NCBI RefSeq assembly: GCF_009914755.1 | Contig: NC_060927.1 | Source: the human T2T-CHM13v2.0 reference genome, Homo sapiens | Direction: 5' to 3' (one strand) | Length of the DNA stretch: 64,000 bases | In this document: positions 18,531 through 23,435 of the stretch, piece by piece | How positions within the stretch are numbered: the stretch's first letter is position 1 | Layout of the letters: each line of letters opens with the position of its first letter | The notes under the pieces: model-generated | Told to the model about the DNA's origin: nothing | Database searches by the model: none | What the model saw: the letters and a program-made list of their open reading frames with translations, nothing else | Position numbers and translations under genes: made by a program

Positions 18531-18849
<319 letters not shown>

Positions 18850-19368
18850 ACAGGCATATTGTTAATACCTCATGTAAATATAAATAATTTAACTCATCAT
18901 TTTACTACATAAAATTTATTGTTTAAAGTTATTGAATTATTAATACACTGCATGTATTATATAAGGTAGATATTTTCATCAACTACATTGGAAACTTTAA
19001 CTGTAATATTTTCTGAACTTTTATAAAACATGAGGGTTTGTTTTTACATTATTTATACTGTGAATTCAACATTAGCAGATTGTTGAGAATACAATTAAAA
19101 ACTCATAGTATTATTGAACTCATTGTATATATTTAAATAAGAATAAAATATTTTTTACTCCAAAAATGTTTACTCTTCCATGGTTGTTTAGTTCAAGATG
19201 GACCAGTGATCACTCACTTCAATTTTGAACAATCCTTTTAACTTTCTATAGCAAAGGCTGTTAAATGAAATAATATCTATAATTACGATTTTCCTATATT
19301 TTTTAAATTTAGAACTTTATATTTCATTTAATCAACCATCTTTAATCTTTCATAATTTTTTTTTTTTT

Positions 19369-19583
19369 CGGAGACAGGAGTTTTATTATTCAAATCAGTT
19401 TTGCCCAAGCATTCCAGGATCAGAGATTTTAAGGATAATTTGGCGGGTGGAGGAAAGCCAGTGAGTCAAGAGTGCTGATTGGTTGGCAGGAGATGAAACC
19501 ATAGGGAACTGAAGCTGTCCTCTTGCACTGAGTCAGTCAGTTCCAGGGTGAGCCACAAGATCACATGAGCCAGCTTATCAATC
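19369..19583 (-). mobile_element. LTR8-like (ERV1) fragment, apparently carried here as an L1 3' transduction
   Basis: ggagacaggagttttattatt...gaagctgtcctcttgcactgagtcag resembles LTR8; poly(T) on both sides; truncated just after its AATAAA on the minus strand. Confidence 0.8.
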
Positions 19584-19618
19584 TTTTTTTTTTTTTTTAA
19601 GATGTGTGGTATTATTTC

Positions 19619-20554
19619 TTTTTTTTTATTTTTATTTTTTATTATACTTTATGTTTTAGGGTACATGCGCACATTGTGCAGGTTAGTTACATATGTATAC
19701 ATGTGCCATGCTGGTGCGCTGCACCCACTAACTCATCATCTAGCATTAGGTGTATCTCCCAATGCTATCCCTCCCCCATCCCCCCACCCCACCACAGTCC
19801 CCAGAGTGTGATATTCCCCTTCCTGTGTCCATGTGATCTCATTGTTCAATTCCCACCTATGAGTGAGAATATGCAGTGTTTGGTTTTTTGTTCTTGCGAT
19901 ACTTTACTGAGAATGATGATTTCCAATTTCATCCATGTCCCTACAAAGGACATGAACTCATCATTTTTTATGGCTGCATAGTATTCCATGGTGTATATGT
20001 GCCACATTTTCTTAATCCAGTCTATCATTGTTGGACATTTGGGTTGGTTCCAAGTCTTTGCTATTGTGAATAGTGCCACAATAAACATACATGTGCATGT
20101 GTCTTTATAGCAGCATGATTTATAATCCTTTGGGTATATACCCAGTAATGGGATGGCTGGGTCAAATGGTATTTCTAGTTCAAGATCCCTGAGGAATCAC
20201 CACACTGACTTCCACACTGGTTGAACTAGTTTATAGTCCCACCAACAGTGTAAAAGTGTTCCTATTTCTCCACATCCTCTCCAGCACCTGTTGTTTCCTG
20301 ACTTTTTAATGATTGCCATTCTAACTGGTGTGAGATGGTACCTCATTGTGGTTTTGATTTGCATTTCTCTGATGGCCAGTGATGATAAGCATTTTTTCAT
20401 GTGTTTTTTGGCTGCATAAATGTCTTCTTTTGAGAAGTGTCTGTTCATGTCCTTCGCCCACTTTTTGATGGGGTTGTTTGTTTTTTTCTTGTAAATTTGT
20501 TTGAGTTCATTGTAGATTCTGGATATTAGCCCTTTGTCAGATGAGTAGGTTGCG
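19619..20554 (-). mobile_element. L1PA2-like 3' fragment (about 0.93 kb)
   Basis: Near-consensus ORF2 C-terminus ([20 protein letters not shown]...) and young 3'UTR (cacattgtgcaggttagttac); GAG rather than the Ta ACA diagnostic. Confidence 0.93.
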
Positions 20555-20662
20555 CATTCTCTAGAGAAGAACGATCACCAATAGCAAATGGCAGTTGGAA
20601 TAACGCAACACCAAACGCTGCTTTCACGCTCATGAGAGAACACAAATATCTCCTCCTCGTGG
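20553..20662 (-). pseudogene. U3 snoRNA (SNORD3)-like 3'-domain retrocopy fused to L1
   Basis: Minus strand ccacgaggaggaga...tgagcgtgaa...caactgcc...attggtgatcgttcttctct aligns by eye to U3 from about nt 76 (CCACGAGGAAGAGA...TGAGCGTGAAG...CAACTGCC...ATTGATGATCGTTCTTCTCT). Confidence 0.88.
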
Positions 20663-23435
20663 CATAATTTTCAAAAACCACAATTAAGTGGGCCTCCAGA
20701 AGACAATTAACAGTATCAGTTCCCAAGTTCTGATTTACACTGATTCATTACTGACAATATGCCTTTCTCTCATCTTACATCTTTCAAACTTTATACATAA
20801 AACTGGGTGTTGGCTTCCTGGATTTAACCTGGGCTCAATGTCATCACCATTCATAACCTTTCTCTTATTCTACCACTTTCAGATAATTTAGGTTTACTGA
20901 AGTCAGTAGCGGGTCTCCATCTGTTAGTCCTTCCTTCATGAATAGCGATCCGGCAGCCATCTAAAACAACTAGCAAGGTAAATGGAAACTTTGCTCAAAT
21001 GCATTTAAACAATTAAGACAAGAAAAATGAGAGAAATCCTCCATAATACATTTAGAAAGAGCACAATGCCGTTTTCAAAGTTTAGATGTCACTCATGTCT
21101 CTAAATTATTATCATGTGTAATTATTGAAATAATGAAAGATTTTACAAGTTTGCACTTAAGGGTCCCATGAAGCACATAAACTCCACTGTGTTAATTCCA
21201 TACTATAGACATCAAAGATGGAGTAATTCAAACTGAGTTTACAGAAATAACATAAATTTTAATCCAGTCACAGAATAAAGATATCATTATGAAACATTTC
21301 ATGAGGCTATCATTTCAAAAAGCCAAACTGGGCCACATGAATAAATAAATTCATAAATAAATACAACAAAAAATGGATATGAGATATTAATCTTCCACAG
21401 ATCTATAAATATACATCTGTCTATGAATTCATATTAATATTTATTTTGCCATAGGTCAAGAAAGCTTGAGAATGCAAGGGTGAGATGAAGGCAGAAAATA
21501 TGGTTAAGGAAGTGAGAAAAGTAAGATCTGACAGCTTAAGATTAGTAAATTCTCATATGGGATATTAGAAGCAAAGAACAACCCTAAAAGTTTGCAGGAT
21601 AATTTATTGTAATAGAATAATATGTTCTAAATTGTTTTACAAATTGTATCTTTATATAAAATGTAAATTTTATGTTTTTGTATTTTTTTATGTTTTAAAG
21701 CTTTACAATAGTATTACACAATAAAATGACAATAGAAATTATTCCATTGTATTAGAAAGTTAAAGTGAAAGCTTATTAAACCTTAAACTTCATAGAAAAG
21801 ATAGTAAAATATTCTAATCGGTTGCATTTTGAAGGATAGCTCATTTTAAAAAATATATATGAAATAATATAAATTAATTAGATTTAAGAAACATAGATCA
21901 TTGTTTTTTTCCAAAATTGTTTTACTAACTGATGTCAAAAAAGTGTCTTAAAATTAGTGCTCCTATCTCCCGTTTACTATTCTTCCCATATCAAACCCTT
22001 ACTTATTTTAGATATCAATTACCAGTTTAAAAGTAAACATGTAATAGTTGTAACTCTCCATAATTATGTTTTCTTCCATTAACTTTTAAATTTATCTTCC
22101 ATTGTTTTTCTTCTGTTATTCTGGGTCTAGTGCCTTACCATACAAAAGATACTGATTATAACTTAGTTGATATTTGAGGTTTGAAAGAGTGGTTGTGTTT
22201 TGAGTCCTTCAAATGTGTTTGAAAATTAAATCAACAACAACAATAAACATGTTTCTTTGATTGTAAGAGTACTTTTTGTTTGAGTAGGGAAAAAAAGCTT
22301 AGTAATATATCAAGTTAAATAATCTAAAACAATTATTACATTTAACACATGGAAGAGAAATATTGTTTTAAAAATATAGCATATACGGTTTGCCAATTGT
22401 ACTCAAAGCTCTTTTGTGGGTGACAGGCAGAGTCAACACCTTATAAAATGTAATTCACATTTGTGGACAATATTGACACTGACCAATAACCAATTTCCTC
22501 TCCTTGAGCATGACAGACACGATAGTTTGTGCTCATTTCCAGTTAGGCACAGGTATAGGACTAGTTCTGGGCAATGAAATGTGAGTAGAAGTAATGTTTG
22601 TTTTTTACAGTTGAGATAGTGACATTCTCTGCTCATGTGACATTCCCTGTTCACTCTCTCTTTCTCTCTCAGTCCAGCAATGATTGTAAAAGTTCTGAGG
22701 TTGTTACTGCATCAAAATTTAGTCTATATTGACTGTAATACTGTTAAACATAATTTCAAACATACATCATGATGATTCTTTACAACCCTGTATAGGAAGG
22801 CCAAGGGTAGTAGTCAAAGCCTGGCAGGAATCTTGTTTACCTAAAGATAAAAGCAGATGGTATAAGTGACATCTGCCAACAGACATAGGTGGAGGATACA
22901 GAAAAATTCACATAGTCCATCAGTTATATACATGATTTGAGTTACCCTCAGCACCTGTCTTTTCAATAAGAATCAGTTTAGCTAATACATGATCTCAAGG
23001 AGAAGAATGCCAGAGTCAAAGAATCAGGAGAGCAAAACAATAGTTTTCTAAATGGCCTGAATCATTTGTAAATTATCTACAATATTCAAATCCTGTAAGA
23101 CTAGAAGTTATATCATATTCCACTTACTCTGTGAATGAAAGTCCAAGGTTTAGAGGAGAGGAGAGAAGAACTAAGACCACTGTATGTTAAAACTCAACCA
23201 TTAATATTTCTTTTCATTTAATTAACTCACTTTCTGGGAGAACTTGATGTTTGGTTTGACTACTCAGTTTTTATTTCATGAGCACTACATCCTCTTATTT
23301 TTTAGGGCCTTCCTTTTATGTATCATAAGTTTCTGCAGTTTACCATCTGAACACTCTATAATTTTAACTTCCAGACGATTATTCTCCTCACATTATGCTA
23401 TGCAAAATTGATCCTTATCTGACATTCTTTCAACC

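What the first reader, a model, noticed from the sequence alone, without database searches (positions are those of the whole stretch)
19351..20671. One composite retro-insertion: U3 snoRNA domain + L1PA2 + two transduced tails in a single TSD
Seen, reading the minus strand: TSD (cataatttt at 20663-20671), U3-like segment 20662-20553, L1 3' end 20554-19641, poly(A), 20 nt unique, A15, LTR8 fragment, poly(A), TSD (cataatttt at 19351-19359). No TSD flanks the L1 alone. Known: snRNA/snoRNA-L1 chimeras and L1 3' transduction are each described. Inference: all parts arrived in one TPRT event. Repeat annotators would split this into unrelated pieces. Caveat: the TSD is short and partly merges with the poly(T).
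Basis: partly seen in the sequence, partly recalled or inferred. Interest (0 to 1): 0.85.

Follow-up and report, generated by a model that had tools for sequence, protein, structure and literature searches.

The report
U3-variant/L1PA2 chimeric retro-insertion with tails
This is a young LINE-1 insertion that picked up a piece of a U3-like small RNA at its front and two short extra pieces at its back; the U3/LINE-1 fusion at this site is already in a published catalogue, so it is largely ordinary.

Summary
On the minus strand a 1,303-bp block lies between two copies of AAAATTATG. In order it holds a U3-like fragment, 913 nt of L1 3' end, an A-rich tail, 20 nt, A15, a 215-nt LTR fragment and a short A tail. 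Those two 9-mers are the only copies in the window.

- **Already published.** The U3/L1PA2 fusion at this locus is in Table S2 of Cell Genomics 2026 (PMC13174262). It is flagged there as arriving together in a multi-species alignment.
- **Correction.** The "20 nt unique" stretch is not unique. It is sense-strand ORF2 sequence of an older L1.
- **LTR fragment.** It is 99% identical to one LTR on chr20 and ends at that LTR's poly(A) site. CHM13 has no L1 next to that LTR.
- **U3 piece.** It comes from a divergent U3 variant whose only other copy is on chr17, at 87% identity. Of their 14 differences, 13 are derived on chr17 and none on the window copy.
- **Age.** All three parts carry few private changes: 0 of 109, 0-1 of 213 and 12 of 913.

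Best reading: one target-primed reverse transcription (TPRT) event, using a serially transduced L1 RNA followed by a template switch to U3-variant RNA. A later insertion of the LTR piece into the tail is not excluded.

The parts
20663..20671 (-). 5' copy of the target-site duplication, AAAATTATG. The preceding bases give the cleavage site TG/AAAA.
   Evidence: D12
20554..20662 (-). Fragment of a divergent U3 snoRNA variant, U3 nt 76 to about 205. It lacks the 5' domain and the last 12 nt, and has a 24-column gap in the terminal hairpin that it shares with the chr17 copy.
   Evidence: Rfam U3 43.7 bits. 76% identity to the 17p U3 genes and 87% to chr17:59499505-59499613. 0 of 14 differences derived on this copy.
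19641..20553 (-). 5'-truncated L1 3' end, 913 nt (ORF2 C-terminal part plus 3' UTR). The published table calls it L1PA2. The C at 20554 is shared with the U3 piece, giving 1 nt of microhomology.
   Evidence: 29 nearest copies are 97.4-97.8% identical; 12 of 913 private differences. Junction. Family name.
19619..19640 (-). First, impure A-rich tail. Its last AATAAA (19630-19625) lies 26 nt before the end of the following 20-mer.
19599..19618 (-). 20 nt of sense-strand ORF2 sequence from an older L1 subfamily. Read as the first bases of the 3' flank of an earlier source L1 (a short 3' transduction).
   Evidence: Young L1 relatives differ here at 3-4 of 20 positions (7 of 29 reach this site). An Alu on chr10 used the same site as its target.
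19584..19598 (-). Pure A15 tract. Read as the genomic tail of the immediate parent L1.
   Evidence: None of the 11 genomic copies of the LTR family inspected (chr20 plus 10 others) has an A run at this point.
19369..19583 (-). LTR fragment copied from chr20:15669212-15669424. It starts inside the LTR and ends 13 nt after the LTR's AATAAA (19387-19382).
   Evidence: 99% identity to chr20 (2 differences), 84% or less to all other scored copies.
19360..19368 (-). Terminal poly(A), 9 A. It runs into the 4 A of the target-site duplication.
19351..19359 (-). 3' copy of the target-site duplication, AAAATTATG.

Best explanation
One L1-mediated TPRT event of roughly L1PA2 age produced the whole 1,303-bp block.

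1. L1 endonuclease nicked at TG/AAAA.
2. Reverse transcription started on the poly(A) of an L1 read-through RNA. That RNA already carried two generations of 3' flank. The first is 20 nt of an older L1 in which a grandparent element sat, polyadenylated 26 nt after the L1's own last AATAAA.
3. After copying 913 nt of L1, the enzyme switched template onto a U3-variant RNA. It landed 12 nt before that RNA's 3' end, with 1 nt of microhomology.
4. It copied back to U3 nt 76, and the cDNA was then joined to the target. This created the 9-bp duplication.

Shown: the anatomy, the repeat, the source of the LTR piece, the low private divergence of all parts, and the published joint arrival of U3 and L1.

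Inferred: that the two tails were collinear with the L1 RNA, and the order of steps.
For: - **Repeat at the ends.** AAAATTATG occurs 2 of 2 times at the outer ends, on the same strand, abutting the first U3 base and the last poly(A). No repeat of 8 nt or more flanks the L1 alone.
- **Published co-arrival.** Table S2 of PMC13174262 lists hg38 chr3:80627044-80627969(-) L1PA2 with U3:76-175 at chr3:80627978-80628077(-), proximity = 1 and msa_prediction = 1. Segment lengths, strand and U3 coordinates match mine, with one constant offset of 54,585.
- **All parts look young.** U3 piece: 0 of 109 private changes, with 1 site ambiguous. LTR piece: 0-1 of 213. L1: 12 of 913, where its 29 neighbours have 5-12.
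- **LTR piece.** It has one 99% source; all other scored copies are 84% or less. It ends 13 nt after AATAAA.
- **The 20-mer.** It is older-L1 sequence, not the sequence of the young L1 itself. Its start is a site L1 endonuclease has used elsewhere, as an Alu target-site duplication on chr10.
- **Literature on transductions.** Two poly(A) tracts around a short piece are typical of partnered 3' transductions, and 248 of 349 transductions in one dataset were under 100 bp (passages of PMC13009371).
Against: - No L1 lies next to the chr20 LTR in CHM13 within the 1.5 kb of flank held on each side of the match.
- The supposed parent insertion site there (TC/AGAT) is a poor L1 endonuclease site.
- Apart from the window itself, none of the other 8 matches to an A run plus the 20-mer is an L1 tail of this kind. 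Only the chr10 match was read in detail, and it is an Alu target site.
- No other copy joins an A run to the LTR piece. The only other match has 3 mismatches and diverges after 23 nt.
- No L1 copy shares the four clustered private variants. The best is 97% of 76 nt, with 40 of 760 candidates scored.
- The U3-variant source is not present unchanged. The best other copy is 87% identical.
- The only 'empty-site' comparison is a 69-81% identical paralogue on chr8. It also lacks 8 nt of the repeat, so it shows the block is an insertion but not that it came at once.
Confidence: 0.6

Rival explanations
1. A single TPRT event, but the LTR piece was a separate polyadenylated RNA. Reverse transcription began on an LTR-derived transcript from chr20. 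It then jumped to the poly(A) end of an L1 RNA that carried the 20-nt tag, and later jumped to the U3-variant RNA. No parent L1 ever sat in the chr20 LTR.
For: The chr20 LTR has no L1 beside it, and the fragment start is a poor endonuclease site. The same insertion shows at least one template switch, L1 to U3. Multi-part chimeras from double jumps are described in a fungus (PMC2104539, search listing and abstract start only).
Against: The fragment start lies inside the LTR and no TATA-like motif precedes it in any of the 11 copies inspected, so it does not look like a transcript start. A jump onto a poly(A) end would be expected to copy a longer A tract than 15, though tracts shrink with time. 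3' transduction is the commoner route to this layout.
Confidence: 0.17
2. Two events. The U3-L1 chimera, with its 20-nt tag and poly(A), inserted first. Later a retro-copy of the chr20 LTR transcript inserted at the start of that poly(A), at CTT/AAAA. That is an ideal L1 endonuclease site, and it would leave a duplication made only of A.
For: The site TCTT/AAAA at 19599/19598 fits the endonuclease preference. An all-A duplication would be invisible, so the outer repeat does not exclude this.
Against: The downstream A run would then hold the new tail plus at least 15 A, but only 13 are present. It needs a rare RNA to hit one particular 15-bp tract within a short time: the LTR piece has only 0-1 of 213 private changes. 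No other retro-copy of this LTR above 84% identity was found among the 40 of 1,412 first-look candidates that were scored.
Confidence: 0.13
3. An old resident U3 pseudogene lay at this site. The L1 with its tails later landed directly beside it, with a target deletion or without a duplication, and the 9-nt repeat is chance.
For: The U3 piece is only 76% identical to the functional U3 genes, which at first sight suggests great age.
Against: - The divergence is shared with the chr17 variant. The window copy has 0 private changes against 13 on chr17 (two-sided binomial p about 2e-4).
- The chance of the 9-mer at a given position is about 2.6e-5.
- The two parts have the same orientation and abut exactly.
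- The published alignment-based call is contemporaneous.
Confidence: 0.03

Closest known systems
U3 snoRNA/LINE-1 chimeric insertions (Cell Genomics 2026, PMC13174262, Table S2, sheet U3, 22 loci)
   Same: This very locus is row 3 of that sheet. It shows a sense-oriented U3 piece fused directly to a 5'-truncated L1PA2, called contemporaneous by multi-species alignment. The paper states that U3 in such chimeras is mostly sense-oriented and truncated (passages).
   Different: - It is the only 1 of 22 rows with the U3 3' domain (76-175). The other 21 start at U3 nt 1-8 and end at nt 29-89.
- The table gives no target-site duplication for the U3 sheet and ends the L1 at its first tail. The 20-mer, A15 and LTR piece are not recorded.
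- The variant origin of the U3 piece is not noted.
U6/L1 and other snRNA/L1 chimeras formed by template switching of the L1 reverse transcriptase
   Same: Small RNA at the 5' side, L1 3' end at the 3' side, one poly(A)-terminated unit inside one duplication, and an endonuclease-type cleavage site.
   Different: In the sheet rows I read, the U6 pieces are near full length (1-105 to 1-107). Here the switch landed 12 nt inside the small RNA and copying stopped at nt 76.
Partnered L1 3' transduction, including short and serial ones
   Same: The L1's own tail is followed by non-L1-3'-end sequence and a further poly(A). The last piece ends 13 nt after an AATAAA. The duplication follows the last tail. 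Two poly(A) tails and lengths under 100 bp are common.
   Different: The defining link to a source L1 is missing. The chr20 source locus has no L1 in CHM13, and no element with the first tag was found. The first tag is itself L1 sequence.
Classical 3'-truncated U3 retropseudogenes (about the first 65-70 nt of U3). The description is recalled, not read here.
   Same: Derived from U3-type RNA by reverse transcription. Such copies are visible in this genome as matches to nt 1-58 up to 1-77.
   Different: This copy holds the other half of the RNA (nt 76 onward), derives from a divergent variant, and is fused to an L1.

Membership tests
snRNA/snoRNA-L1 chimeric retro-insertion | Small-RNA piece fused directly, in sense, to the 5' end of a 5'-truncated L1 3' part | tested here: met
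   The U3 piece ends at 20554 and L1 homology starts at 20554/20553, on the same strand.
snRNA/snoRNA-L1 chimeric retro-insertion | One target-site duplication around the whole unit and an L1 endonuclease-type cleavage site | tested here: met
   A 9-nt repeat sits only at the two outer ends. The site is TG/AAAA. A row with the same site is marked as an EN motif in the paper's table.
snRNA/snoRNA-L1 chimeric retro-insertion | Both parts present or absent together across species | not testable with these tools
   No primate genomes are held. The published table gives found_by_msa_prediction = 1 for this locus. Private-substitution counts agree with it.
L1 3' transduction | L1 tail, then extra sequence, then a new poly(A), with the duplication after the last tail | tested here: met
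   Three A tracts separate the L1, the 20-mer and the LTR piece. The repeat follows the last one.
L1 3' transduction | The transduced piece ends at a downstream polyadenylation signal | tested here: met
   AATAAA lies 13 nt before the end of the LTR piece. The L1's last AATAAA lies 26 nt before the end of the 20-mer.
L1 3' transduction | The piece maps to a unique locus lying directly 3' of a source L1 | tested here: not met
   The unique 99% source is chr20:15669212-15669424, but no L1 adjoins it in CHM13. No source was found for the 20-mer. A non-fixed, lost parent would explain this but is not shown.
Functional U3 snoRNA gene | Full-length RNA with the 5' domain and terminal boxes | tested here: not met
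   Only model positions 81-214 are matched. The last 12 nt and the first 75 nt are absent.

The most novel reading that the evidence does not exclude
The U3 piece may be a dated snapshot of the RNA of a promoter-bearing U3 variant gene on 17q (CHM13 chr17:59499487-59499688).

- Since the snapshot was taken, the gene has changed at 13 of 109 positions and the snapshot at none.
- That is 9-16 times what the co-inserted L1 and LTR pieces give as a neutral yardstick.
- If so, the strong germline hypermutability reported for primate Pol II-transcribed spliceosomal snRNA genes also applies to a U3-type gene.
- L1 chimeras could then serve as frozen references to measure such hypermutability.

The alternative is that the true source gene was lost from the human genome.
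Probability: 0.4. Interest if true: 0.55.

Novelty: already known. Interest (0 to 1): 0.3.

Why it matters
The core, a U3/L1PA2 chimera at this site, is already published, and both mechanisms are textbook for L1. The added value is annotation.

- The insertion is 1,303 bp long, not the about 1,030 bp recorded, and includes two appended pieces whose origin is traced here.
- It is the single catalogued U3 chimera that holds the 3' half of U3. It begins at nt 76, close to where the catalogued 5' pieces mostly end. This points to a recurrent break or stop in U3 RNA near nt 70-76.
- Its U3 part derives from a divergent variant gene. The 13-to-0 split of substitutions between that gene and the retro-copy is unexplained. 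If it reflects hypermutation of a transcribed snRNA-type gene, it would be of wider interest.

Tried and rejected
- **Grandparent L1 search.** I looked for an A run followed by the 20-mer, allowing up to 2 mismatches. There were 9 matches. Besides the window, the only exact one is an Alu target site on chr10. The other 7 carry 2 mismatches and were not read in detail.
- **A run joined to the LTR piece.** One weak match (3 mismatches) proved unrelated after 23 nt.
- **L1 copies sharing the four clustered private variants.** None was found. The best is 97% of 76 nt, with only 40 of 760 candidates scored.
- **Further members of the U3 variant lineage.** None was found among 19 matches.
- **20-mer as a jump within the same L1 RNA.** Rejected. 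The 7 of 29 young relatives that reach this site read differently at 3-4 of 20 positions.
- **LTR fragment start as a splice acceptor.** Rejected on reading. The G (and perhaps the A) of the AG is kept in the window copy.
- **LTR fragment start as a transcript start.** No TATA-like motif precedes it in the 11 copies inspected. Not settled.
- **Promoter similarity, chr17 variant versus a real U3 gene.** Over 350 nt the local alignment is no better than shuffles (11 against a mean of 10.4). Only an 11-nt motif at the same distance from the start (10 of 11 bases identical) stands out.
- **Orthologous primate loci.** These could not be examined, as no such genomes are held.
Full report
**What is there**

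Read on the minus strand, the region holds these parts in order:
- AAAATTATG at 20671-20663
- a U3-like segment, 20662-20554
- 913 nt of L1 3' end, 20553-19641
- an impure A-rich tail, 19640-19619
- 20 nt, 19618-19599
- A15, 19598-19584
- a 215-nt LTR fragment, 19583-19369, with AATAAA at 19387-19382
- nine further A
- AAAATTATG again at 19359-19351.

The preceding bases give the cleavage site TG/AAAA.

Rfam scores the U3 segment at 43.7 bits (gathering score 34) over model positions 81-214.

The 9-mer occurs twice in the 64-kb window on both strands, and only at these two ends. Dinucleotide shuffles give 3.28 per window, about 2.6e-5 per position.

The repeat finder reports it as family D12. 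It finds no direct repeat of 8 nt or more that pairs the L1 5' junction with a site after either internal A tract.

**The locus is already in print**

A full-text search led to [quoted passage not shown] (bioRxiv 2025; Cell Genomics 2026, PMC13174262). I read passages of it and Table S2 parts 1-2 and Table S3 part 1.

Sheet U3 of Table S2 has 22 rows. Row 3 gives:
- L1PA2 at hg38 chr3:80627044-80627969(-)
- U3:76-175 at chr3:80627978-80628077(-)
- found_by_close_proximity = 1 and found_by_msa_prediction = 1.

My alignment of a real U3 gene to the window also gives U3 76-175, at CHM13 chr3:80682563-80682662. A single offset of 54,585 maps both the U3 and the L1 coordinates. I therefore take it as the same locus.

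The paper's alignment-based call means that U3 and L1 are present or absent together across species.

The table gives no duplication for the U3 sheet and ends the L1 at its first tail. The 20-mer, A15 and LTR piece are not recorded there.

This is the only 1 of 22 rows with the 3' domain of U3. The other 21 begin at nt 1-8 and end at nt 29-89.

**The U3 piece**

It is 76% identical to the functional U3 genes on 17p. That alone would suggest an old pseudogene.

Its nearest relative is a full-length variant at chr17:59499487-59499688, 87% identical over 109 nt. That copy scores 78.3 bits as a complete U3. No third member of this lineage was found among 17 and 19 matches.

The two copies share many derived states and a 24-column gap in the terminal hairpin.

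I polarised their 14 differences with 13 other U3-type copies. Thirteen are derived on chr17, none on the window copy, and one is ambiguous. The two-sided binomial p is about 2e-4.

So the window copy has a branch length of about zero. This fits a young insertion and argues against an old resident pseudogene.

The chr17 copy has CTCACCATCAG at about -62. A real U3 gene has CTCGCCATCAG at about -63. The wider upstream region shows no similarity above shuffles. I recall that this is where the proximal sequence element of snRNA-type promoters lies. That label comes from no call.

**The L1 piece and the junction**

The 29 nearest genomic copies are 97.4-97.8% identical. Only 40 of 5,692 candidates were scored.

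Against the 80%-or-more majority state of those 29, the window has 12 private differences in 913 nt. The neighbours have 5-12. This fits the L1PA2 label of the published table.

L1 relatives read ...TTTTCG before CAACC in 22 of 29 copies. The C at 20554 therefore belongs to both partners, giving 1 nt of microhomology.

The switch landed 12 nt before the 3' end of the variant RNA, and copying ended at nt 76.

**The 20-mer**

It is not unique.
- With up to 2 mismatches it has 7,602 matches in the genome.
- In 10 of the 11 other exact-match loci inspected it lies inside L1 ORF2. In the eleventh (L030) a 5'-truncated L1 begins at it. L1 ORF2 sense sequence continues after it in all 11.
- Four further exact matches were not inspected.
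- Young relatives of the window's L1 that reach this site (7 of 29) read differently at 3-4 of the 20 positions. The 20-mer therefore comes from an older L1 copy, not from the same RNA.
- On chr10 an Alu used this very site as its target.
- The L1's last AATAAA lies 26 nt upstream of the end of the 20-mer.

This fits a short 3' transduction from a source L1 that sat inside an older L1. Such short pieces between two poly(A) tracts are common: 248 of 349 transductions were under 100 bp in PMC13009371 (passages).

No such source was found.

**The LTR piece**

It is 99% identical (2 differences) to chr20:15669212-15669424. All other scored copies are 84% or less, with 40 of 1,412 candidates scored.

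At chr20 the LTR continues on both sides. The copied part begins inside the LTR and ends 13 nt after its AATAAA.

One of the 2 differences is derived on chr20: 8 of 10 other copies share the window's state. The other is ambiguous. The window copy therefore has 0-1 private changes in 213.

There is no L1 within the 1.5 kb of flank held on each side of the match at chr20. The junction site there (TC/AGAT) is a poor endonuclease site. In all 10 other copies inspected, the sequence before the fragment start is GC-rich and has no A run.

**An ancient paralogue of the flanks**

The 5' flank matches chr8:89294767-89294975 and the 3' flank matches chr8:89294976-89295239, at 69-81% identity. The two matches are directly contiguous.

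The chr8 copy lacks the whole block. It also lacks 8 nt of the repeat (AAAATTAT).

This shows the block is an insertion with the stated outer limits. The paralogues are far too old to show that the parts came together.

**Reading**

The U3 piece and the L1 came in one event (about 0.9).

That the whole block did so is likely, but not forced by the repeat. A later retro-copy landing at CTT/AAAA, the start of the A15 tract, would leave an all-A duplication.

Against that later-insertion reading:
- the downstream A run is only 13 long;
- the LTR RNA has no other young copy;
- such a hit on one 15-bp tract is improbable.

Within the single-event reading, serial 3' transduction is the commoner route. 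The missing parent at chr20 leaves room for a jump from a separate LTR transcript.

**Unexplained**

The source of the U3-variant RNA is not in CHM13 in unchanged form. I see two possibilities.

- The master gene was lost.
- The chr17 gene is the source and has since changed 13 of 109 positions. That is 9-16 times the yardstick set by the L1 (1.3%) and by the chr20 branch of the LTR (0.5-0.9%).

A 2026 preprint reports 11- to 16-fold higher rare-variant density and a 25.6-fold higher de novo rate at human Pol II-transcribed spliceosomal snRNA genes (passages of bioRxiv 10.64898/2026.10.12.758683). U3 is not covered there.

On the coding strand, the chr17 changes are C>T 4 against G>A 1, and A>G 4 against T>C 2. 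That is suggestive only.

**Verdict**

It belongs to known kinds, and its core is already catalogued. The new content is the two appended pieces (one of them mis-described as unique), the variant origin of the U3 part, and the 13-to-0 asymmetry.

Noticed in passing
L002 (CHM13 chr17:59499487-59499688, minus strand): A full-length divergent U3 variant (Rfam 78.3 bits). It carries an 11-nt motif (10 of 11 bases identical) at the same distance upstream as in a real U3 gene. It holds 13 derived substitutions in 109 nt relative to the retro-copy in the window. Where the 17p genes have TGATGA, it reads TGGTGA (the box C label is recalled).
   Followed up: partly
L084 (CHM13 chr8:89294767-89295239): An old paralogue (69-81% identity) of both flanks of the insertion, contiguous at 89294975/89294976. 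Only these two copies were found, so the flanks belong to an ancient duplication or a very low-copy repeat. The chr8 copy lacks 8 nt of the target-site sequence.
   Followed up: partly
PMC13174262 Table S2, sheet U3: In 21 of 22 catalogued U3/L1 chimeras the U3 piece is the 5' part, mostly ending at nt 68-76. The window's piece begins at nt 76. The same point of U3 RNA therefore acts as entry point in most cases and as stop point here.
   Followed up: no
L036 (CHM13 chr10:127746359-127746383): An Alu inserted into an older L1 ORF2 exactly at the 20-mer site, with a target-site duplication beginning AGAAATAAT. L1 endonuclease has therefore used this site more than once.
   Followed up: partly
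L012, about 200-900 nt upstream of the chr20 LTR (minus strand): An intron-less, coding-like stretch lies next to the LTR and looks like a processed pseudogene. It was not searched.
   Followed up: no
window 19332-22840 (minus strand): According to the hub's gene table, an exon of another transcript of lncRNA LOC105377177 spans the whole insertion. It ends about 20 nt past the 3' target-site copy. The retro-insertion is therefore exonised in a predicted model.
   Followed up: no
window 18561-18850: Below-threshold Rfam matches to SRP RNA, mir-1268 and mir-3135. None reaches its family's gathering score. I take this to be an Alu-type repeat beside the insertion, which was not checked.
   Followed up: no
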